A stretch of 9,583 nucleotides of DNA. Origin: a virus (lineage: Duplodnaviria > Heunggongvirae > Uroviricota > Caudoviricetes). The notes beneath the pieces are model-generated. The model did not search any database. It had not been told where the DNA came from and worked only from the letters and a program-made list of their open reading frames with translations. Positions 506-9,583 of this stretch are shown in pieces (the first letter of the stretch is position 1; the number at the start of each line of letters is the position of its first letter). The translations under genes were made by a program, and so were the position numbers. Location of the stretch: the IMG/VR virus record IMGVR_UViG_2617271049_000002. One strand, given 5' to 3'.

Positions 506-2803
506 TTAACCGTCATGCATCATGCTGGCACGGGCGCGCGCACGTTTATCCCGCTCGTATTTTTCGAGCGCATCCTGTAACTGGCGGTCAAGCTGTGTCC
601 CCGGCGCAGTACCACCGGTCAGGCTGATGTGATATTCGTTTTTACTCTGGTCCACATAAGAGCGGCCAGCCGGTGCCGTAACCGGCTGATAAGCCTGATA
701 GCCTGCATAAGAGCTGGTCGCCGGAATATAACCACCGGTGCCATACGTGGCGGCATTAGTCCTTGCGGCGGTCTGGTCAAGTGTGTCTGACTCTTTGTTG
801 ATGACACCGAGTTTTTCCAGTACCCAGTCAATACCACTGCGCAGTTTGTTGAACGCATTAAGCGGCAGCATCAGCGCGTCAGNNNNNNNNNNGACCGGGG
901 CAATCAGGTTTTTAAACCACTGCCACGCGGCCTGTAACTTTTCACCCAGCCAGTCAAACACCGGTTTAAGTGGCGTGAACAGTTCCCCCACCGGCGCAAA
1001 TGCCGCTTTCAGCCCTTCCACCACACCGCCAAAGAATGCGCTGACAGGCTCCCAGTATTTACGGATAAGCAACGCCCCGGCGACAATGGCAGCCACCACG
1101 GCCACAACCGGCCAGCTAATCGCACCGATGGCCGTCATAACGGCACTACCAACCGTCGTGAAGATTGCCCCCATTGCGCCTGCTGCCGCGATAATGGCAT
1201 TGATGCCGGTGATAACCGGCCAGGCTACAAGACCAATGGCACCGATGATGCCAGTAAGCGCCAGCGCGCCACCGACAATGAGGCCGATGGTTGACGCCAG
1301 TGATTTGTTTTTCTGGATCCAGCCGTCGAGTTTTAACACATACTTTGTGGCCGTCTGCGTGAGCTTACGCAGTGCGCCTTCCTGCTGGTCAAACAGGTCA
1401 GTCCCCACCGCCTCATAAGCGGACTGAAACTCCTTAAAGTCACCGCCAAGGTTGTCCTGCATGATATTTACCAGTTCTGCGGTCTTTCCGTCTGAGGCTT
1501 TAAACGCAGCGGTCAGTTTGTCCAGCTTTCCGGTTGACGCGGCAGTCATCAGCACAGCGGCGGCTGAGCTGGCCTCCTCCCCGAAAATGGTTTTCATGTA
1601 TTCGGCCTGCTGGGCAGTACCGAGCCGGTTTTTCTCAAAACTGGCCTGCATTTCTTTCAGAATGGTGAACAACGGACGCATATTTCCCTTTTTGTCCGAG
1701 GTTTTAACGCCAAGCTCTTTGAGTGCATCCCATGCTTTTCCCGTCGGTGCCTGCAGGCGGCTTAACACGGCACGGCTTCCCGTCCCCGCCATTGAACCGG
1801 TAATTTTTGCATCATGCAGCGCCCCGACCATTGCGGCGGTTTCTTCAATGCTGACACCAGCATTTTTTGCCACAGGTGCGGCATAGGTCAGCGCATCGCT
1901 CATGCCATCAAAATCGGCGGCGGTTTTGTTCATCGTCATGGAGAGAACATCCCCGATATGAGCGACCTTATCGTTTGAAAGCTGAAAGGCGGATTTCATC
2001 CCCATCAGCAGGGCGGCGTTTTCTTCCATCGTGCGACGGTTCGCCAGCGCCATATTCAGCGTGACCGGCGTTGCCGCCTGAATGGCATCAACATCCCCAC
2101 CGGCTTTCGCGATAATAATCTGCGCACCGGCTGCATCATCCGCCGAGGCGGCGGTATTGTCGCCGAGCTGGCGCGCCTGCTTGCGTAGTGCAGCCANNNN
2201 NNNNNNCGCCGCAATCCCCACACCGGCAGCGCCTACTGAGGCCATATTTCCGGCCAGTTCCTTTCCGGCCTGATAACGCTGTTTGACTGCGTTAAGTTTT
2301 GCCTGTTGCACACTGACACGCGCCAGCGCGTCGCGCTGACGGTTAAGCTGTGCGGTGGTTTCACTGATACGGTTTTTCAGTCCCTGCTCATCATGTGCAA
2401 GATTGCGGGTATTAATTCCCACAGCGGCCAGTTCCCGCTGCTGGCGTTTAACGGAATCCGTCAGGCGGTTATATTTCGCCTGTAAGTCCTCCGCCGCTCG
2501 CTTTGCGGATTCCAGCACTTTCGCCTGAGCACGGGTCGGACGTTCGGTGTTTTTAAACTGTGTGGCAAGGGCTTCGGCTTCCTGCCGTGCCTTTTCAAGT
2601 GCATGACCAGTCACGGCAAGCTGTGCACTGGTCTTGCGGAATCCCTCAATACGGGATGCGTGACCGTTCAGCTCGCGCAGTGATTTTTGTGTTTCCCGGA
2701 TATCCCCCGACAGCGACCTGCTCGCTGTGCGGATGGATTTAAACGGGCGGGATGCCTGGTCAACAGCCCTGAGCAATACCTGTAATTTTACATTGTTACT
2801 CAT
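506..2803 (-). CDS. T: Tail tape measure protein gpT, 765 aa as given (contains two masked 10-N runs)
   Basis: Long ORF directly after E/E'. It has a coiled-coil-rich N-terminal part (…LQAKYNRLTDSVKRQQRELAAVG…) and a long Gly/Ala/Ile-rich hydrophobic segment (…LIVGGALALTGIIGAIGLVAWPVITGINAIIAAAGAMGAIF…) typical of tape measure proteins. Its ATG (2803..2801) overlaps the E' stop in the motif AATGAGTAA. The frame is maintained across both N runs. Confidence 0.9.
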   Translation of the reverse strand: MSNNVKLQVLLRAVDQASRPFKSIRTASRSLSGDIRETQKSLRELNGHASRIEGFRKTSAQLAVTGHALEKARQEAEALATQFKNTERPTRAQAKVLESAKRAAEDLQAKYNRLTDSVKRQQRELAAVGINTRNLAHDEQGLKNRISETTAQLNRQRDALARVSVQQAKLNAVKQRYQAGKELAGNMASVGAAGVGIAAXXXXAALRKQARQLGDNTAASADDAAGAQIIIAKAGGDVDAIQAATPVTLNMALANRRTMEENAALLMGMKSAFQLSNDKVAHIGDVLSMTMNKTAADFDGMSDALTYAAPVAKNAGVSIEETAAMVGALHDAKITGSMAGTGSRAVLSRLQAPTGKAWDALKELGVKTSDKKGNMRPLFTILKEMQASFEKNRLGTAQQAEYMKTIFGEEASSAAAVLMTAASTGKLDKLTAAFKASDGKTAELVNIMQDNLGGDFKEFQSAYEAVGTDLFDQQEGALRKLTQTATKYVLKLDGWIQKNKSLASTIGLIVGGALALTGIIGAIGLVAWPVITGINAIIAAAGAMGAIFTTVGSAVMTAIGAISWPVVAVVAAIVAGALLIRKYWEPVSAFFGGVVEGLKAAFAPVGELFTPLKPVFDWLGEKLQAAWQWFKNLIAPVXXXXDALMLPLNAFNKLRSGIDWVLEKLGVINKESDTLDQTAARTNAATYGTGGYIPATSSYAGYQAYQPVTAPAGRSYVDQSKNEYHISLTGGTAPGTQLDRQLQDALEKYERDKRARARASMMHDG
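883..892. other. Run of 10 N (masked or unresolved bases) inside gene T
   Basis: Literal nnnnnnnnnn in the sequence. The T reading frame continues unbroken on both sides (XXXX in the translation). Confidence 1.
2197..2206. other. Run of 10 N (masked or unresolved bases) inside gene T
   Basis: Literal nnnnnnnnnn in the sequence. The T reading frame continues unbroken on both sides. Confidence 1.
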
Positions 2804-3810: not shown

Positions 3811-5001
3811 TTAATTGCTGTTAACCGAGGTGACCAGATTTGCCAGATATTTATCAGTAATACGCTGGCGCAGGGTCAGGTTTTCGAGAGGAGGCACCGG
3901 GGTATAGTCATAGTCGATATACAGTTTTCCGGCCTTGAGGGTTTCCGCATCGTTGGATTCTTCGCTGAACCAGCAGGTCGCATCCACGATATAGCCGTTT
4001 GTTTTCAGCTCACGGAATTTGGCATTGATGCCGTCAACGATGTCGCGAATCAGCGTTGCGGTGATGGGCTTATCCACCGCCCACATGTGCGCCTCAGCCA
4101 TCGTGTCGGCCAGCACCTGCGCGGTGCGGGTGTAGTTTTCAAAGAGGAACAGTGGGTCATCAGAGCAGGTACGGTTACCCCAGAAGCGGAAACCGTCACG
4201 GCGAATCAGCGTTGTGACACCTGACTCGTTCAACAGGTCAGCATCGGTGCCGGACTCCTGCAAATCCCAGAATACAGAGGCGCTGATGCCGGTAACACCG
4301 TTTACCCCGACATTGGACAGCGTTTTATGCCAGCCCTGCTCCTGGTCGATTTTAGCGCGCAGACCCAGCGCACGGGCGGTGGCATACGCGGTGGCGGTGG
4401 TGCTGCTGACCGTATCCCATGCGAGGAAATCCGGCCAGATGACCATCAGCTCACGCTGGCTGAAATTCTGGCGGTAGGCTTTCACCTCGGAAATAGTCTT
4501 ACAGCCCCATGCGCTGATATATCCGAAAGCGCGCAGCTTCTGACAGACGGATGCCAGTGCAACAGCCACCTCTTTGGTATCCAGTCCCGGCACACCGAGA
4601 ATACGCGGTTTAACACCGGTTACCGACTCCGCCGCCAGCAGGGCTTTCAGTCCGGTGTACTGACCGTTTTCGTCGGTGGTGCCGATGATATTGGAAACGG
4701 TCTGCGCGAGTTTCGTTTCTTCGTCATCGCCGGTGCCGTCTTCCACGCGCACGACAACGGTGACCGGTTTTGACTGGTCGGCGATGGCCTGCAACGATGC
4801 CGCCAGCGTGCCTTTTTTACCGGCCTTTGCAATTGCGCTCTGCACATTGGTAATCAGCACAGGTTTATTGAGGGGGAAGGTTTCCGCATCCGCATCGCTG
4901 GCCGTGCAGACCATGCCGACAATGGCCGTGGATACGGTGGAAATGACGCGGGTGCCGTCGTTAATCTCCAGCACCTGCACGCCGTGATGATAGTCGCTCA
5001 T
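3811..5001 (-). CDS. FI: Contractile tail sheath protein gpFI, 396 aa
   Basis: 396-aa ORF starting MSDYHHGVQVLEINDGTRVISTVSTAIVGMVCTASDADAETFPLNKPVLITN…, which I recognise as near-identical to P2 FI. A GGAG Shine-Dalgarno lies 8 nt upstream of the ATG (minus strand caccGGAGttaaacggATG). Confidence 0.93.
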   Translation of the reverse strand: MSDYHHGVQVLEINDGTRVISTVSTAIVGMVCTASDADAETFPLNKPVLITNVQSAIAKAGKKGTLAASLQAIADQSKPVTVVVRVEDGTGDDEETKLAQTVSNIIGTTDENGQYTGLKALLAAESVTGVKPRILGVPGLDTKEVAVALASVCQKLRAFGYISAWGCKTISEVKAYRQNFSQRELMVIWPDFLAWDTVSSTTATAYATARALGLRAKIDQEQGWHKTLSNVGVNGVTGISASVFWDLQESGTDADLLNESGVTTLIRRDGFRFWGNRTCSDDPLFLFENYTRTAQVLADTMAEAHMWAVDKPITATLIRDIVDGINAKFRELKTNGYIVDATCWFSEESNDAETLKAGKLYIDYDYTPVPPLENLTLRQRITDKYLANLVTSVNSN

Positions 5002-5024
5002 CCGTTTAACTCCGTGGTTAATGG

Positions 5025-5095
5025 GTGCAACTATTTTCTGTTGTGCAGAGCATGAGACGCTATTTGACCTGGCTGGTCAGGGGATGAAACAACAG
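5025..5095 (-). promoter_or_regulatory. Putative late promoter region for the FI operon (P_F equivalent), with a dyad TGACC-N5-GGTCA at 5065..5079
   Basis: In P2 the FI-FII-E-T-U-D operon has its own Ogr-activated late promoter. Here a 15-bp dyad (plus strand tgacctggctggtca, 5065..5079) lies about 65-80 nt upstream of the FI ATG, and a weak -10-like gaaaat lies at 5038..5033. It does not match the textbook TGT-N12-ACA perfectly, so this call is positional only. Confidence 0.3.
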
Positions 5096-5123
5096 ATAAA
5101 GAAAATGCGGGCAATTCGCCCGC
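5095..5123 (-). terminator. Rho-independent terminator closing the island (or H-G read-through) transcript
   Basis: An all-G:C 6-bp stem gcgggc/gcccgc (5107..5112 pairs with 5118..5123) has a 5-nt loop. On the minus strand it is followed directly by ATTTTCTTTATCTGTT. It lies between the stop of the second island gene and the FI promoter region. Confidence 0.55.
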
Positions 5124-5184
5124 CTGTCCTGATTTGTACTCACTCATTTTCCGCCTGACAATTTACATAGCCCAAATGCTATCA

Positions 5185-5219
5185 AATCTGACAGTCTGCT
5201 TTGAGCGAGGAGCGGAAGT
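5185..5219. repeat. Left arm of a 35-bp imperfect inverted repeat flanking the AT-rich island
   Basis: aatctgacagtc-tgctttgagcg-aggagcggaagt compared with the reverse complement of 7458..7492, aatctgacagtc-cgctctgtgcc-aggagcggaagt. The two 12-nt blocks are identical and the middle block matches 7/11, giving 31/35 overall. Confidence 0.75.
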
Positions 5220-5276
5220 TCGCTTTGCTCCCGTGTTAATAGTGGGTATTAATCAATCGGGAGCATAACCATAGAA

Positions 5277-6434
5277 TTAGCTGTTTGATTCAGCATCAGC
5301 AACTTTTCTATATTTAGTAAGCAATTCTACTTTACGTAATTCAATCTCACGCATAATGTTTGATTGAATATCATGTATTTTAGAGGGCGACGCACCTTTA
5401 ACCTTTATATTTATAAAGGTAATGCACAATTCAGGATTAACAGGGGTTTTTCTTCCATATTCACTAAACTCGTATGCAACCTTACATTCACCTGAATAGG
5501 ATTCATAGCTAATTGTGTAACTTGCGACAACCTTAGTAACACGTACATACGGGTGTATGTGTTTCCATTTGATAGATATTATATTCTCTAGATTTCCTTT
5601 GACTCTATACTGGTCAATATCTTTTTCGAGAAAATTAGTCACAGCATCTGATTGTTTTTCGTAACCAGTAGAATGATCCGGATTAAAATGAACATCATCT
5701 ATTTTTTGATGGTAGAATAAGTATCCAATATGAAGGGATGCTAATTCATTAAGGAATTTTACTCTGTTTTCATTTTCAAAATCATCCATCAGAACTCTAC
5801 CTCGATGAGGCGAATGTTCAATTATATTATTTCTTTCCAAATGCTCCTCTATCAAGGTTATGACATTTTCAGCTATTTCTTTAGTTTCCGGAGATGTGTG
5901 ATTTAGTTTTACATTCATTAAAAGCTGGGAGTTACCAGTGATGCCATTAACGTCTTTCTTGATTTCCACAGATCCTTTAAAGAACTTCTCAGTTATATAC
6001 CAATCATCTAGAATATCTGTCTTGCAAATTTCGAACTCCATTATTACGGAATTATTACTTCTACCATCTAGAGATGTAAAATCGCTAAAATCTGATATCT
6101 CATAATTAATGTAACCATTTTTTGTGATTTTACTAACATCTACAAACCCACTAACTTCACCAAGCAAATCAACATCTTGCTTAAGATCAAAATTCCTGAA
6201 ATTTACTTTATCTAATTTTTCCTTTGTTTTAATACTGCTTAGTAAATCATAAGATTCATCAGGGCTTAGTAAAGAGGTGATCAAGTTTGGAACTGTGCCT
6301 GATTTTTCAGACACTCCGCAAAAAAGCCCTCTTTCTTTAAGTAGATTATTGATCATTGTAGAGCTACAGTTCTGCTGGCTCACAAGATTTTTCAGTTCAT
6401 CTCCGGAGGGGATGAAATCAATATCATTTTTCAT
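5277..6434 (-). CDS. Island gene B: hypothetical protein, 385 aa, no recognisable domain (candidate partner in a defence system)
   Basis: Long uninterrupted ORF in AT-rich DNA. The preferred start is the ATG at 6434..6432 (MKNDIDFIPSGDELKNLV…), because it is preceded by AGGAG at 6447..6443 with an 8-nt spacer. That start overlaps the stop of gene A by 11 nt. The track's longer start at 6470 has no RBS and would overlap gene A by 47 nt. I found no Walker A, HxH, HEPN (Rx4-6H), TIR or helicase motif. Confidence 0.8.
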   Translation of the reverse strand: MKNDIDFIPSGDELKNLVSQQNCSSTMINNLLKERGLFCGVSEKSGTVPNLITSLLSPDESYDLLSSIKTKEKLDKVNFRNFDLKQDVDLLGEVSGFVDVSKITKNGYINYEISDFSDFTSLDGRSNNSVIMEFEICKTDILDDWYITEKFFKGSVEIKKDVNGITGNSQLLMNVKLNHTSPETKEIAENVITLIEEHLERNNIIEHSPHRGRVLMDDFENENRVKFLNELASLHIGYLFYHQKIDDVHFNPDHSTGYEKQSDAVTNFLEKDIDQYRVKGNLENIISIKWKHIHPYVRVTKVVASYTISYESYSGECKVAYEFSEYGRKTPVNPELCITFINIKVKGASPSKIHDIQSNIMREIELRKVELLTKYRKVADAESNS

Positions 6435-7350
6435 CAGAAATGCTCCTGAAGGTGCTATTATAAGAATCAACGATTAATGTAATATCTCCAACGACATCCT
6501 CAGAGCCATCTTCAAAATTTTGCGCCATTTTGACTTCATCAACTGAAGGGGAGTCTGTGAGTTTATTATATTTATTGAAATAAATCTCATAATGATTTGC
6601 GAAATCGGAACAAAGCTTTCTAGCTAATTTATACACCAACCCTAGTGATTCTTTACTGTAATTAAAATCGCAAAGTAATATAAATTTTCGCCCATTATCA
6701 TCAGGCACAGAAATGGGAATTATTGGAGAGGTAATGTATTCAACAGGCATTATTTTAGAATGTCTTGTTGAAGATGAAACATTTAAGGTAGTGTTAAGAC
6801 AGAAAAAAGATATTTCACCATGCTTTTTCTTGATAAAGCTTATCGAGTTGTATAAAAATTTTGCTCTTGCGTTATCAACGAGATGTATGGCGTTGAACTT
6901 GAGGGTAGAATCGATTCTATGATTGATGATTTCACCTTTAATATTATCATTTGAATCGCTTTCATCATTATTTAAATAAAACAAAACCCCAATATCTTCT
7001 TTTCTTGAACTACCTGGAAATTGTCTTGTTATGGTTCTTTTAAACTGGGATTTTGAATAACATTCAATGGTGTGTGCCAAGTCTTTGAAATGTGAGCGAA
7101 AAGTAGTTTTGACTTTATCGTAAGGTACTGATGAATACTTTGCAGAAACAACAACGCTTACTAATGATTGTTTTTGAAGCATAGAGTTGTAGACATACAA
7201 AGCATCTATTCCATGTGTCTTTTTAGCATGTTCTCCCACGCAGCAATCTAATTGCTTGTTACTACATAGGTTTTTCCATCCAAAGAGTTTCAGAAAGTCA
7301 TTGACTATCTCTTCGCCCACCTCGCCGACATATTTTGAGAACTCGCCCAT
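6424..7350 (-). CDS. Island gene A: hypothetical protein, 308 aa, with an N-terminal PD-(D/E)xK-like (Mrr/DUF4365-like) putative nuclease core
   Basis: Long ORF in AT-rich DNA. The N-terminus reads GEVGEEIVNDFLKLFGW (acidic helix ending in G-W), then HGID49ALYVY (beta-strand Asp), then SLVSVVVS69AK71Y (hydrophobic strand followed by S-x-K). This is the order and spacing of restriction-endonuclease-fold cores (E…D…(E/Q/S)xK). The C-terminal ~220 aa are unassigned. Confidence 0.8.
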   Translation of the reverse strand: MGEFSKYVGEVGEEIVNDFLKLFGWKNLCSNKQLDCCVGEHAKKTHGIDALYVYNSMLQKQSLVSVVVSAKYSSVPYDKVKTTFRSHFKDLAHTIECYSKSQFKRTITRQFPGSSRKEDIGVLFYLNNDESDSNDNIKGEIINHRIDSTLKFNAIHLVDNARAKFLYNSISFIKKKHGEISFFCLNTTLNVSSSTRHSKIMPVEYITSPIIPISVPDDNGRKFILLCDFNYSKESLGLVYKLARKLCSDFANHYEIYFNKYNKLTDSPSVDEVKMAQNFEDGSEDVVGDITLIVDSYNSTFRSISDEK

Positions 7351-7385
7351 TACCTAAACCGCCGTCTATTAAATTATAATTCTTT

Positions 7386-7414
7386 ATAGTATTAATCTTA
7401 TTCACATTTATCAA
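7386..7414 (-). promoter_or_regulatory. Putative sigma70 promoter of the island operon (TTGATA-N17-TACTAT)
   Basis: Minus strand reads TTGATA (7414..7409), a 17-nt spacer, then TACTAT (7391..7386), about 36 nt upstream of the gene A ATG. A perfect TATAAT also occurs at 7378..7373 but has no good -35. AT-rich DNA produces such matches by chance. Confidence 0.45.
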
Positions 7415-7457
7415 CATTAGGAGTAAGCAAGACGAATTAGTAGTGAGTCATCAATCG

Positions 7458-7492
7458 ACTTCCGCTCCTGGCACAGAGCGGACTGTCAGATT
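7458..7492. repeat. Right arm of the 35-bp imperfect inverted repeat flanking the AT-rich island
   Basis: acttccgctcct-ggcacagagcg-gactgtcagatt is the reverse complement (31/35) of 5185..5219. It overlaps a local hairpin with a perfect 9-bp stem, ggcacagag (7470..7478) pairing with ctctgtgcc (7501..7509). Confidence 0.75.
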
Positions 7493-7532
7493 AGGCTTTA
7501 CTCTGTGCCATAGATATGTAAGCTAATACAAC

Positions 7533-8060
7533 TTATTGCGGCATTTCCGGCCATTCAGGATTTGCAGGATCCACACGACTGACCAGAACGCTGTAGCGTT
7601 CCCATGATTCCAGTCGGCTACGCTCCTCATCTGTTGCCATGTTCAGTCTGACCGCGCGCTCCAGCGGCAAAATCACGGATTCAGCATCTGCAAGAAGTCT
7701 GGCTTTCTGAATTTCTGCCTGCTGCTGTAATTCCTCTGCCGTATAAATGCGTTTAATCACTTTGCCGTCCTTAAACATCCAGTTCCCTGAAATGTCCGCC
7801 CGTCGGTTAGCAGTAATATCCGCCACTTCAACAACACTTAATCCATCCGGTCTGATAGCTGTCACATCCTTTTCCACATAGTGGATGATATTATCTTTGT
7901 CGTACGCTATTTTTATCGTGTCATCAGCAAAATACTTTTGTTCTTCGTACCAGTTCTTACCATCTTCTGAAAAAAACCAGACAACATCAAAGTCCTTTGT
8001 CAATTGATATTGTTCAACCGTTTTTGGATTACCCGCCGTAATATTTTTTAAATGCTGCAT
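7533..8060 (-). CDS. G: Tail fibre assembly protein / chaperone gpG (Tfa family), 175 aa
   Basis: 175-aa ORF 3 nt downstream of the tail fibre gene, with the same size and position as P2 G. The C-terminal …[27 protein letters not shown] is typical of Tfa-family chaperones. Confidence 0.88.
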
Positions 8061-8063
8061 AAA

Positions 8064-9583
8064 TTATACCTGCGCCACGTTATACCATGTCCCGTTAATG
8101 TATTTCTGCACCGGTCTGTAATATACGCCACCAATGTTATCGGCAGAGTTTGAGCCGGTATCCTGAACAATAATGCCGGTATATACGCAACCTGACGGAG
8201 CCTGATGCGTCCATGTAGTACCATTATTTGCTGGTTTATATGTAGATGCACCGCCCAGCCGCATGTCTCTCACATAACGTGAATCTGATTCAGCTTTGGT
8301 GTATGCACCAACATCTCCCGCTGAGGGTTTATGAGCAGTTGTATATAGTTGCGCCCATCCAGACCAGTTAGCATCTGTGGTATCTCGTCGGGAGCGAATA
8401 TATGCCGGAGCATGAGCACCGCTGGTTCCACTCCAGCCAATAAGTAACTCACCCTCTCCTACTGCGGTTACGCCAGTGAGATGAAGCACATTACCATAGG
8501 CTGTTGGGTAGCCATTGTTGTATGCCTCATACATCTGAATACCTGGTGTCCCCTTTACGCTCCCACCTAATGCAGTAACACGGTTTCTGGATACCAGTGT
8601 ATTAATATTTATATCAGCAGAGCCATCAAATCTGACACCATTAATATTTCTTGCGTTCGCTAACTTCGTTGCTGTTGCAGCATTTCCCGAAAGGCTGGAA
8701 ATAAATGGATGTGAGCAGTAATAACCGCGCCCATTTTTAAAATCCAGAATAGCCTGTGCGTTCGTGCTTTCTGTAGCAGGATTAGTTGCCCCCCACTTAT
8801 ATGTCGTTTGACCGACGACATAATCCTCTGTCGGAACAATAACCGTTAGCCCTTCCTCTGCAAGAATTTGCACAGGGAAAGCTCTGGCTTCAACATAAAA
8901 AACACTACATACATCATCATCTTTCAGGCTTGTAACAATGGAATGGATTGAACGCTCATTAGTCTGATACGTCCAGAAATAACCTGCCGCATATGAACCA
9001 CGATCAGTCCAGCCTCCGGGCATAACCATGCCATTAAACTCGCAGTTATTCATTACATAATCGCTGTTATAACAACCAGTGGAAATAACGACGCGGGATG
9101 CCATTTCTCCTGAAAGGCTGGCAGCACGGCGAAAGATAACGGGATACCACTTCCCGGCAACGACATTTGCAGGGGCTGCAAACGAATACTTTCGCATTCC
9201 CTTTTTCTTATCCACTTCACCTTTGCTGTAAACATTAATGTTACTCAGGAAGCGTCCTTTATCAGGAATATCCGCACCGTTCTGATCTTTCTGAAGACGT
9301 TTTTCAGCATTGTCATAGGCAGACTTCACCGCTTTTGGTGTTGCGGCCTGCGTTTCAGAATCACTGTTGGTGGCGCTACTGAGCTGGACAAGGCCTTTCC
9401 GCGCGGTGGTGGCATCCTGTGCAGTGTATTTCCCGTTAGCAAGGTCATACGCTGTCTTAACCGCCTTTGGCGTTGCCGCAAGCGTTTCAGAATCGCTGTT
9501 GGTGACGCTACTGAGCTGGACAAGACCTTTTCGCGCTGTGGTGGCATCCTGTGCAGTGTATTTCCCGTTAGCAAGGTCATACG
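8064..9583 (-). CDS. H: Tail fibre protein gpH, C-terminal ~506 codons (5' end lies beyond the window)
   Basis: The track starts this ORF at a GTG (9329), but the same frame stays open up to the window edge. My translation of 9581..9330 is YDLANGKYTAQDATTARKGLVQLSSVTNSDSETLAATPKAVKTA repeated twice and running into …VKSAYDNAEKRLQKD. This is the conserved tail-fibre repeat motif shared by P2 H and related fibres. The gene is followed by the chaperone gene G. Confidence 0.9.
   Translation of the reverse strand, partial: YDLANGKYTAQDATTARKGLVQLSSVTNSDSETLAATPKAVKTAYDLANGKYTAQDATTARKGLVQLSSATNSDSETQAATPKAVKSAYDNAEKRLQKDQNGADIPDKGRFLSNINVYSKGEVDKKKGMRKYSFAAPANVVAGKWYPVIFRRAASLSGEMASRVVISTGCYNSDYVMNNCEFNGMVMPGGWTDRGSYAAGYFWTYQTNERSIHSIVTSLKDDDVCSVFYVEARAFPVQILAEEGLTVIVPTEDYVVGQTTYKWGATNPATESTNAQAILDFKNGRGYYCSHPFISSLSGNAATATKLANARNINGVRFDGSADININTLVSRNRVTALGGSVKGTPGIQMYEAYNNGYPTAYGNVLHLTGVTAVGEGELLIGWSGTSGAHAPAYIRSRRDTTDANWSGWAQLYTTAHKPSAGDVGAYTKAESDSRYVRDMRLGGASTYKPANNGTTWTHQAPSGCVYTGIIVQDTGSNSADNIGGVYYRPVQKYINGTWYNVAQV
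9318..9583 (-). repeat. Two tandem 132-nt (44-aa) near-identical repeats inside H encoding the conserved KGLVQLSS-TNSDSET-AATPKAVK-AYD fibre motif
   Basis: Copy 1 is 9581..9450 and copy 2 is 9449..9318, both beginning TATGACCTTGCTAACGGGAAATACACTGCACAGGATGCC. I saw only a handful of substitutions. A degenerate third unit starts at 9317 (YDNAEKRL…). Confidence 0.9.

What the first reader, a model, noticed from the sequence alone, without database searches (positions are those of the whole stretch)
5185..7492. AT-rich two-gene cassette in the P2 G/FI (Z/fun) hotspot: candidate undescribed anti-phage defence system
Seen directly: an otherwise canonical P2 tail block is interrupted between G (stop at 7533) and FI (start at 5001) by about 2.3 kb of compositionally foreign DNA. 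By-eye counts on individual lines give 28-35% G+C in the insert against about 63% in FI. The insert holds two co-oriented ORFs of 308 and 385 aa that overlap by 11 nt. Established knowledge: this position holds the non-essential Z/fun gene in P2 (T5 exclusion). In P2-like prophages the locus is a known variable hotspot where diverse defence systems are swapped, analogous to the old/tin locus. Inference: a nuclease-like protein plus an unknown partner, apparently with its own promoter and terminator so it could be expressed in the lysogen, fits a prophage-encoded defence or abortive-infection module. I cannot match either protein to a defence family I know (no helicase, ATPase, TIR, SIR2, HEPN, reverse transcriptase or methyltransferase signatures).
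Basis: partly seen in the sequence, partly recalled or inferred. Interest (0 to 1): 0.9.

Follow-up and report, generated by a model that had tools for sequence, protein, structure and literature searches.

The report
Known GAPS4 defence system in P2 prophage
The AT-rich two-gene insert between the P2 tail genes G and FI is real, but it is GAPS4, an anti-phage system that is already named, annotated and tested in the laboratory with these exact two proteins, so it is not a new defence system.

Summary
About 2.2 kb of 33% G+C DNA lies between tail genes G and FI of a P2-like prophage. It carries two co-oriented, 11-nt-overlapping genes of 308 and 385 aa. The claim that it is undescribed fails. 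Both proteins pass the curated NCBIfam cut-offs for GapS4a and GapS4b. The region matches E. coli chromosomes annotated gapS4a/gapS4b apart from one synonymous base. The proteins are identical to WP_028132563.1 and WP_028132564.1. These are GAPS4-RiKo, which Mahata et al. (bioRxiv 2025) cloned with its native promoter and tested against 73 coliphages; a D49A mutant lost protection. They report a 2:2 complex whose PD-(D/E)xK subunit (HGxD-SxK motif; here H46-D49, S69-K71) degrades DNA non-selectively once DNA breaks are sensed, causing abortive infection. The G/FI (Z/fun) hotspot is also published. The finding's coordinates are the outer ends of a 35-nt inverted repeat. Inverted repeats around fun were reported in 2004. 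Here the repeat proved to be the inner part of roughly 86-nt terminal repeats (TGT...ACA). In other genomes these repeats are flanked by 7-bp target-site duplications and enclose varied cargo with no transposase. That side observation is the only possibly new element.

The parts
6424..7350 (-). gapS4a: 308-aa PD-(D/E)xK-type nuclease subunit of GAPS4, with motif H46-G-I-D49 and S69-A-K71
   Evidence: NCBIfam NF047933 GapS4a, 291.3 bits against a cut-off of 270, E 8e-87. Identical in protein sequence to the RefSeq CDS WP_028132563.1. Motif positions. Precomputed Pfam PF26115 PDDEXK_GAPS4.
5277..6434 (-). gapS4b: 385-aa partner subunit of GAPS4; overlaps gapS4a by 11 nt
   Evidence: NCBIfam NF047934 GapS4b, 324.1 bits against a cut-off of 300, E 9e-97. 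Identical in protein sequence to WP_028132564.1. Precomputed Pfam PF26110 GAPS4b_N.
7386..7414 (-). Candidate sigma-70 promoter of the cassette (TTGATA-17-TACTAT), 36 nt upstream of the gapS4a ATG
   Evidence: Consensus scan, 9 of 12; weak on its own. DNA homology to a diverged (82%) copy in another phage context, L128, starts at 7415, right at the -35 element. The published RiKo construct was active from its native promoter.
7458..7492 (.). G-side arm of the 35-nt inverted repeat; contains the hairpin GTCCGCT-N10-AGCGGA
   Evidence: the repeat finder pair I1. Conserved at 80-99% per column across 43 different cargo types; conservation falls to random directly inside the arm.
5185..5219 (.). 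FI-side arm of the 35-nt inverted repeat
7457..7530 (-). Full G-side terminal repeat (74 nt here, with an ~12-nt deletion relative to the 86-nt consensus). Its outer end TGTATTAGC begins 2 nt after the G stop codon.
   Evidence: nhmmer with the TIR profile built from 12 ends; sequence read.
5135..5220 (+). Full FI-side terminal repeat (86 nt); its outer half has diverged (TGTACTCAC...)
5128..5134 (.). Left flanking 7-mer CCTGATT. It matches the right flanking 7-mer ACTTATT (7531-7537, which spans the G stop codon) at 5 of 7 positions, consistent with a decayed target-site duplication.
   Evidence: Intact relatives elsewhere show perfect 7-bp duplications.
5107..5123 (-). Intrinsic terminator (GCGGGCGAATTGCCCGC followed by a T run). 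It belongs to the P2 backbone, upstream of the FI promoter region.
   Evidence: Scan. It lies inside the stretch 5002-5216, which is 96-99.5% identical in prophages carrying other cargo.
7533..8060 (-). P2 gene G (tail fibre assembly); flanking backbone
   Evidence: ORF; RefSeq annotation of the matching DNA; Pfam Caudo_TAP.
3811..5001 (-). P2 gene FI (tail sheath); flanking backbone

Best explanation
The insert is the two-gene anti-phage system GAPS4 (gapS4a and gapS4b). It is carried as cargo in the Z/fun accessory-gene hotspot between tail genes G and FI of a P2-like E. coli prophage. The mechanism below is taken from the published study of these same two proteins; none of it was re-tested here. 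GapS4a is a divergent PD-(D/E)xK nuclease with an N-terminal HGxD-SxK active site. GapS4b dimerises into a ring that docks two GapS4a subunits, giving a 2:2 heterotetramer. The complex is expressed from its own promoter in the lysogen. It stays inactive until DNA breaks or linear DNA appear, as during phage infection or after nalidixic acid or a T6SS DNase. It then degrades phage and host DNA without self/non-self discrimination, which is abortive infection. Phage homing endonucleases attenuate it, probably by masking the breaks. Shown here: family membership, protein identity to the tested system, the catalytic motif, gene order and genomic position. Inferred: that this copy is active in its native prophage context.
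For: NCBIfam GapS4a scores 291 bits (cut-off 270) and GapS4b 324 bits (cut-off 300). Window 5001-7533 matches three complete E. coli chromosomes at full coverage, annotated gapS4a/gapS4b. It has one synonymous difference, at 6634, and both proteins are identical to WP_028132563.1 and WP_028132564.1. Those accessions are named as GAPS4-RiKo in bioRxiv 10.1101/2025.09.07.674715. That paper reports up to 10^6-fold EOP reduction from the native promoter against a 73-phage panel and loss of protection in D49A. It also reports degradation of phage and host DNA, triggering by nalidixic acid and by the PoNe DNase, a measured 2:2 SEC-MALS mass for the Vibrio homologue, and an AlphaFold3 model for RiKo. 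The motif HGID 46-49 and SAK 69-71 is present. The founding description of GAPS4 is in bioRxiv 10.1101/2023.03.28.534373. The exact GapS4a protein is indexed in 576 blocks of public assemblies. All 8 places inspected have GapS4b downstream and sit between Caudo_TAP (G) and the tail sheath gene. The pair also stays together at 96-97% identity in Silvania hatchlandensis and at 87-89% in another phage context.
Against: Nothing contradicts it. PADLOC-DB v2.0.0 (2023) gives only a weak N-terminal hit (Hp1, E 3e-5), and the local Pfam copy gives nothing. These libraries predate or lack the GAPS4 models; newer Pfam models PF26115 and PF26110 do hit. No solved structure is detectable by sequence. Activity in the native prophage was not tested by anyone as far as I could read; the published work used plasmids.
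Confidence: 0.97

Rival explanations
1. An undescribed defence or abortive-infection system.
For: No hit in the local Pfam copy, PHROGs or the PDB, and only a marginal PADLOC v2 hit.
Against: Curated NCBIfam models for both genes pass their cut-offs. RefSeq carries the gene names. Dedicated Pfam families exist. Two papers describe the system, one of them testing these exact proteins.
Confidence: 0.01
2. A non-defence moron, such as a toxin-antitoxin pair, a restriction-like nuclease for phage DNA processing, or a lysogenic-conversion gene unrelated to phage exclusion.
For: The same terminal-repeat-bounded slots in other genomes sometimes carry non-defence cargo: porin, channel and sulfatase genes in L091, and GrpB plus DUF4440 in L131.
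Against: The published plating, lysogenisation and DNA-degradation data for these proteins show phage defence that depends on D49.
Confidence: 0.01
3. A silent or decaying copy that no longer works in this prophage.
For: The promoter match is weak (9 of 12). Native-context expression was not measured.
Against: Both reading frames are intact and the proteins are identical to the active RiKo system. The exact protein recurs in hundreds of assemblies. The published construct used the native promoter.
Confidence: 0.02

Closest known systems
GAPS4-RiKo (E. coli RiKo 2299/09; WP_028132563.1 and WP_028132564.1), Mahata et al., bioRxiv 2025
   Same: Both proteins are identical. Same gene order, same 11-nt overlap and same catalytic D49.
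   Different: No difference at the protein level. The paper's Results and Discussion sections that I read do not mention the P2 G/FI location.
GAPS4-MAVP-R of Vibrio parahaemolyticus (WP_055466293.1 and WP_055466294.1), the founding member, from a GMT island
   Same: Same two-gene architecture, HGxD-SxK motif, 2:2 complex and DNA-break-triggered DNase activity.
   Different: Only about 31% and 25% identity to the RiKo proteins according to the paper. It is carried by a Gamma-Mobile-Trio island, not a P2 prophage.
Shedu and Hachiman (PD-(D/E)xK effectors that respond to DNA ends or aberrant DNA)
   Same: Same logic of sensing DNA integrity and cleaving DNA, as noted by the GAPS4 authors.
   Different: Unrelated sensor subunits and no sequence-family match. 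A weak SduA hit appeared only for a CBASS effector in another locus.
P2 Fun(Z), the reference occupant of the same slot
   Same: Same position between G and FI and the same flanking terminal repeats in NC_001895. It is also a lysogenic-conversion and exclusion gene.
   Different: A single 528-aa protein on the opposite strand, with no similarity to GapS4a or GapS4b.
Hp1 (PADLOC PDLC03004). From memory, unverified: a component of the three-gene '3HP' system from the other P2 hotspot (Rousset 2022).
   Same: Weak similarity over the first 176 residues of GapS4a, the nuclease domain (E 2.9e-5).
   Different: Far below family level, and the partner genes are different.
Mobile insertion cassettes and MITE-like non-autonomous transposons (comparison for the carrier, not for the genes)
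   Same: Terminal inverted repeats, target-site duplication, passenger genes and no transposase.
   Different: The transposase family is unknown. In P2-like phages the carrier is fixed and only the cargo changes. Nilsson et al. 2004 interpreted the inverted repeats as site-specific recombination sites, as summarised in PMC8987985.

Membership tests
GAPS4 (GapS4a/GapS4b) anti-phage system | GapS4a-family protein passing the curated model cut-off | tested here: met
   NF047933, 291.3 bits against 270, covering residues 1-280; PF26115 precomputed.
GAPS4 (GapS4a/GapS4b) anti-phage system | GapS4b-family protein passing the curated model cut-off | tested here: met
   NF047934, 324.1 bits against 300, covering residues 8-371; PF26110 precomputed.
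GAPS4 (GapS4a/GapS4b) anti-phage system | The two genes in tandem (a then b) or fused | tested here: met
   Co-oriented with an 11-nt overlap. The pair is kept together in all related loci examined.
GAPS4 (GapS4a/GapS4b) anti-phage system | N-terminal non-canonical PD-(D/E)xK motif HGxD-SxK | tested here: met
   HGID at 46-49 and SAK at 69-71.
GAPS4 (GapS4a/GapS4b) anti-phage system | Protection against phages that requires both genes and the catalytic Asp | not testable with these tools
   D49A dependence is published for the identical proteins; the requirement for both genes was shown with the Vibrio homologue. Protein identity was shown.
GAPS4 (GapS4a/GapS4b) anti-phage system | 2:2 heterotetramer; DNase activity triggered by DNA breaks | not testable with these tools
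   Published: SEC-MALS on the Vibrio homologue, an AlphaFold3 model for RiKo, and qPCR and nalidixic-acid assays. No multimer prediction is available here, and no PDB relative was found.
P2 Z/fun accessory-gene hotspot | Variable, AT-rich cargo between conserved G (tail fibre assembly) and FI (tail sheath) | tested here: met
   1335 E. coli genomes match the flanks and only 3 carry this cargo. There are 44 cargo clusters among 77 loci, with G+C of 0.32-0.45.
P2 Z/fun accessory-gene hotspot | Inverted repeats flanking the cargo (Nilsson et al. 2004, as cited in PMC8987985) | tested here: met
   Arms 5185-5219 and 7458-7492. The same arms flank fun(Z) in NC_001895. Homology between prophages ends at the inner ends of the arms.
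Transposon-derived non-autonomous cassette (MIC/MITE-like) | Terminal inverted repeats with conserved termini | tested here: met
   86-nt gapless alignment of 12 ends, all starting TGTATTAG. 220 near-complete copies in the loci fetched.
Transposon-derived non-autonomous cassette (MIC/MITE-like) | Target-site duplication of fixed length | tested here: met
   For relatives: 14 of 21 deduplicated intact pairs have a perfect 7-bp repeat and 4 have 6 of 7; the control 7-mers further out match at 3 of 7 at most. For the window itself the match is only 5 of 7 (CCTGATT against ACTTATT), which is inconclusive for this copy.
Transposon-derived non-autonomous cassette (MIC/MITE-like) | The same element at different sites | tested here: met
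   A 6.7-kb CBASS-carrying element, 98.7% identical in L201 and L178, with TSDs CATCACC and CTTTATC.
Transposon-derived non-autonomous cassette (MIC/MITE-like) | A cognate transposase, in cis or in trans | tested here: not met
   No recurring transposase-like ORF within 5 kb inside 220 repeats. None in the cargos inspected. The mobilising enzyme is unidentified.

The most novel reading that the evidence does not exclude
The genes are known, but their carrier may not be. The 35-nt inverted repeats that define the finding's coordinates are the inner ends of roughly 86-nt terminal inverted repeats (5'-TGTATTAGCTCA...) of a transposase-less transposable cassette family that makes 7-bp target-site duplications. 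Members carry GAPS4, a type II CBASS and many other cargos. They occur in P2-like phages, other prophages, phage-plasmids, integrase-bearing islands and a core-gene neighbourhood on a bacterial genome contig. On this reading the P2 Z/fun hotspot is one ancient insertion of such an element, just after the G stop codon. Its cargo is then swapped between fixed repeats by recombination with other copies. The evidence is that the same site and TSD can hold different cargos, and the same cargo can sit at different sites with different TSDs. [quoted passage not shown] The inverted repeats themselves were reported in 2004 and read as site-specific recombination sites. I could not read that paper, so part or all of this may already be described.
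Probability: 0.4. Interest if true: 0.6.

Novelty: already known. Interest (0 to 1): 0.15.

Why it matters
For the finding as posed, little changes. It is one more copy of a characterised defence system in a published prophage hotspot, already labelled by NCBI's pipeline. It does show that defence libraries from 2023 (PADLOC v2) and the Pfam copy used here miss GAPS4, so 'no hit' in those libraries is not evidence of novelty. The carrier is the part worth a specialist's attention. If the terminal-repeat and 7-bp-duplication elements really are a mobilisable cassette family, they offer a testable explanation for how unrelated defence systems reach, and are exchanged at, the same slots in phages, plasmids and chromosomes.

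Tried and rejected
1. Local Pfam, PHROGs and PADLOC scans gave nothing beyond a weak Hp1 hit. This reflects library age, not novelty.
2. No deposited phage genome in the INPHARED set carries the cassette; only the flanks match.
3. The arms as a promoter or terminator coupled to the cargo: rejected. Cargo orientation relative to the fixed arms is 26 one way, 16 the other and 2 mixed. The arm hairpins lack T runs, and folding z-scores are modest, -0.7 to -1.9.
4. Inner arm segments travelling with the cargo, or converted between the two arms: not supported. A permutation test gave P = 0.17.
5. The arms as a known RNA family: no Rfam match.
6. Literature search by the repeat's sequence strings and by '7-bp TSD plus defence' keywords found nothing relevant.
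7. Search for the transposase: clustering ORFs within 5 kb inside 220 repeats found only backbone genes. Small serine recombinases lie near some copies (L118, L131, L132), but serine recombinases (established knowledge) do not generate 7-bp duplications.
8. Nilsson et al. 2004, Odegrip 2006 and Christie & Calendar 2016 are not held in the library.
9. Structure prediction and the large protein searches were deliberately not run, because identity to an experimentally characterised system made them unnecessary.
Full report
OBSERVATION. The window is the tail-gene block of a P2-like prophage on the minus strand. It holds U (partial), T, E/E', FII, FI (3811-5001), then G (7533-8060) and H.

Between FI and G lie 2531 bp. 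This interval contains two co-oriented minus-strand ORFs, 6424-7350 (308 aa) and 5277-6434 (385 aa from the first ATG), which overlap by 11 nt.

G+C is 0.33-0.34 in the two genes.

The coordinates given, 5185 and 7492, are exactly the outer ends of a 35-nt imperfect inverted repeat (5185-5219 and 7458-7492, 89% complementary).

IDENTITY. NCBIfam places protein A in GapS4a (NF047933, 291 bits, cut-off 270). It places protein B in GapS4b (NF047934, 324 bits, cut-off 300).

Megablast of 5001-7533 against 5426 complete E. coli genomes finds three chromosomes matching at full coverage and reported as 100.0% identical. The features there are annotated 'gapS4b: GapS4b family protein | gapS4a: GapS4a family protein'. 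In NZ_CP063518.1 these CDSs are WP_028132564.1 and WP_028132563.1, at the corresponding coordinates. The window differs from that record by one synonymous base, at 6634. Both translations are identical.

The exact GapS4a sequence is indexed in 576 blocks of public assemblies. All eight places inspected show the same neighbourhood: Caudo_TAP, then GapS4a, GapS4b and the tail sheath gene. Their precomputed Pfam families are PF26115 PDDEXK_GAPS4 and PF26110 GAPS4b_N.

The local Pfam copy, PHROGs and PADLOC-DB v2.0.0 miss the system. The only PADLOC signal is a weak N-terminal match to Hp1 (E 2.9e-5).

WHAT IS KNOWN ABOUT IT. GAPS4 was discovered as cargo of Gamma-Mobile-Trio islands in Vibrio parahaemolyticus. 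It was shown there to protect E. coli against several phages (bioRxiv 10.1101/2023.03.28.534373).

A follow-up paper (bioRxiv 10.1101/2025.09.07.674715) cloned 'GAPS4-RiKo; WP_028132563.1 and WP_028132564.1' with its native promoter. Those are the proteins encoded in this window. The paper reports the following:
- Up to six orders of magnitude reduction in plating across 73 coliphages.
- Loss of protection in the D49A mutant.
- A requirement for both genes, shown with the Vibrio homologue.
- A 2:2 heterotetramer: SEC-MALS on the Vibrio system and AlphaFold3 models for both systems, with a GapS4b ring and GapS4a active sites facing outward.
- Degradation of both phage and host DNA.
- Activation by nalidixic acid and by a T6SS DNase.
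- Attenuation by phage homing endonucleases, independent of their catalytic activity.
- 1,639 non-redundant homologues in 59 bacterial orders.

The motif HGxD-SxK is present here as H46-G-I-D49 and S69-A-K71.

THE LOCUS. The G/FI position is the published Z/fun hotspot. Vassallo et al. [quoted passage not shown] Egorov et al. 2024 recover it automatically. A 2026 NAR survey of 1511 P2-like prophages lists a hotspot within the tail genes.

In my data, 1335 E. coli genomes match the flanks of this interval but only three carry GAPS4. Other occupants include an S1 peptidase, an HNH endonuclease and small hypothetical genes.

The strong terminator at 5107-5123 lies in sequence that is 96-99.5% identical among prophages with different cargo. 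It is therefore P2 backbone and not part of the cassette. The candidate promoter (7386-7414) lies inside the cargo. A diverged copy of the system in another phage context (L128, 82% DNA identity) begins its homology at 7415.

THE INVERTED REPEATS (side finding). Homology between P2-like prophages with different cargo stops at the inner ends of the 35-nt arms. An IMG/VR scan with the arm core returned 120 stretches. Together with the window and four E. coli loci, 77 loci carry one FI-side and one G-side arm in inverted orientation. These arms enclose 44 unrelated cargo clusters of 0.8-5.8 kb. Per-column conservation over 43 cargo representatives is 80-99% through the arms and drops to background directly inside them.

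[quoted passage not shown] 2004. The repeats as such are therefore known. I could not obtain that paper.

The arms are not specific to P2:
- 702 plasmid records contain the arm.
- Six of the 77 pairs sit in other contexts, including other tail modules, integrase-bearing islands and a locus next to a Hin-type invertase.
- In Silvania hatchlandensis a 94%-identical GAPS4 cassette sits downstream of hycH and hycI on a genome contig. It retains most of both arms and has no P2 genes nearby.

Aligning these non-P2 copies shows that each arm is the inner third of an 86-nt terminal repeat. The repeat starts 5'-TGTATTAGCTCA and holds two ATCTGACAG sub-repeats. The complete units are flanked by 7-bp direct repeats.

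Among 21 deduplicated pairs with intact TGTATT...AATACA ends, 14 have perfect 7 of 7 duplications of diverse sequence: AATGATA, CATAAAT, CTATATC, GCTAACT, ACTAACA, GATAAAG, CATCACC, CTTTATC, AATAATT, CTTAATA, TTTCATG, AATGAAC, GTTAACC, with GATAAAG seen twice. A further 4 have 6 of 7. The next 7 nt further out never match at more than 3 positions.

Two comparisons point to two processes:
- A 6.7-kb element carrying a type II CBASS (cyclase, E1-E2, JAB, SAVED-HNH effector and an exonuclease) occurs 98.7% identical at two sites with different duplications.
- One site (TSD GATAAAG) holds three unrelated cargos in three metagenomes.

The first comparison points to transposition of whole elements. 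The second points to cargo replacement between fixed repeats.

In P2-likes, including P2 itself, the G-side repeat starts 2 nt after the G stop codon. The FI-side repeat is degenerate in its outer half. The flanking 7-mers match at 5 of 7 positions in most P2-like loci examined (4 of 7 in others). This fits a single old insertion. No transposase was found inside or next to 220 repeats, so the mobilising enzyme is unknown.

VERDICT. Its interpretation as a defence module is right. The claim of novelty is wrong: this is GAPS4, identical at the protein level to the experimentally characterised E. coli RiKo system, sitting in a published hotspot.

Novelty class: already known. Interest is low.

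The only reading with residual novelty concerns the carrier. It appears to be a transposase-less cassette family with terminal inverted repeats and 7-bp duplications that ferries defence systems. Its inverted repeats were noted in 2004 under a different mechanistic interpretation.

Noticed in passing
window 5135-5220 and 7457-7530 (arms 5185-5219 and 7458-7492); related loci L072, L077, L102, L118, L129, L132, L133, L154, L172, L177, L178, L181, L201, L207: The 35-nt inverted repeat is the inner part of roughly 86-nt terminal inverted repeats (TGTATTAGCTCA...). In non-P2 contexts these are flanked by perfect 7-bp target-site duplications: 14 of 21 intact pairs, with control 7-mers matching at 3 of 7 at most. 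No transposase lies inside. Cargos include GAPS4, a type II CBASS, a DUF1311 protein, and sulfatase/porin/channel genes.
   Followed up: partly
L201:6598-13308 and L178:4447-11154; L172:250-3638 and L181:867-2266: The same 6.7-kb CBASS-carrying element (98.7% identical) sits at two different sites with different 7-bp duplications. One site (TSD GATAAAG, flanks 94-99% identical) holds three unrelated cargos. This points to both transposition and cargo replacement between fixed repeats.
   Followed up: partly
L125:5863-8158 (Silvania hatchlandensis NZ_JAMGZK010000044.1): A GAPS4 cassette, 94% identical in DNA to window 7488-5194 and including most of both arms, lies downstream of hycH and hycI and upstream of a TonB-dependent receptor gene. 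No P2 genes are within 6 kb. The outermost parts of the repeats are missing or decayed.
   Followed up: partly
blastn of window 7452-7500 against the plasmid collection; L129, L130, L131, L132: The arm sequence occurs in 702 plasmid records (Klebsiella 451, Pantoea 68, Escherichia 47, Enterobacter 47). These include a Klebsiella plasmid that carries phage tail-fibre genes, where a complete repeat pair encloses a DUF1311 gene. Small serine recombinase genes lie near some copies (L131, L132; a Hin-type invertase in L118).
   Followed up: partly
window 883-892 and 2197-2206: Two runs of 10 N sit inside the tape-measure gene T (ORF 506-2803, shown with XXXX). By comparison with L001 they replace about 65 and 106 bases. 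The 765-aa ORF is therefore a masked version of the 815-aa protein and not a real variant.
   Followed up: yes
window about 9306-9583: A tandem duplication of about 132 nt lies upstream of the 421-aa ORF, within the tail-fibre gene H region. It shows as offset self-matches in blastn against related loci and as a repeated peptide in the out-of-frame ORF 9326-9580.
   Followed up: no
L001:38328-40722 (NZ_CP063518.1, same prophage, outside the window): The same prophage carries a reverse-transcriptase family protein, an HTH protein and a hypothetical gene between the replication gene A and the portal gene, which is the old/tin hotspot. It therefore holds cargo in both P2 hotspots.
   Followed up: no
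window 6424-7350, residues 7-176: There is weak similarity (E 2.9e-5) between the GapS4a nuclease domain and PADLOC model Hp1 (PDLC03004). This may link GAPS4 to another defence system's nuclease. From memory, unverified: that system is the 3HP system from the other P2 hotspot.
   Followed up: no
L018:2332-2571 (also L043 and L094): A 240-bp unit made of two repeats facing each other with almost no cargo lies at the G side of a P2-like hotspot, and a further repeat copy lies 2.3 kb away. This suggests nested or empty (MITE-like) copies.
   Followed up: no
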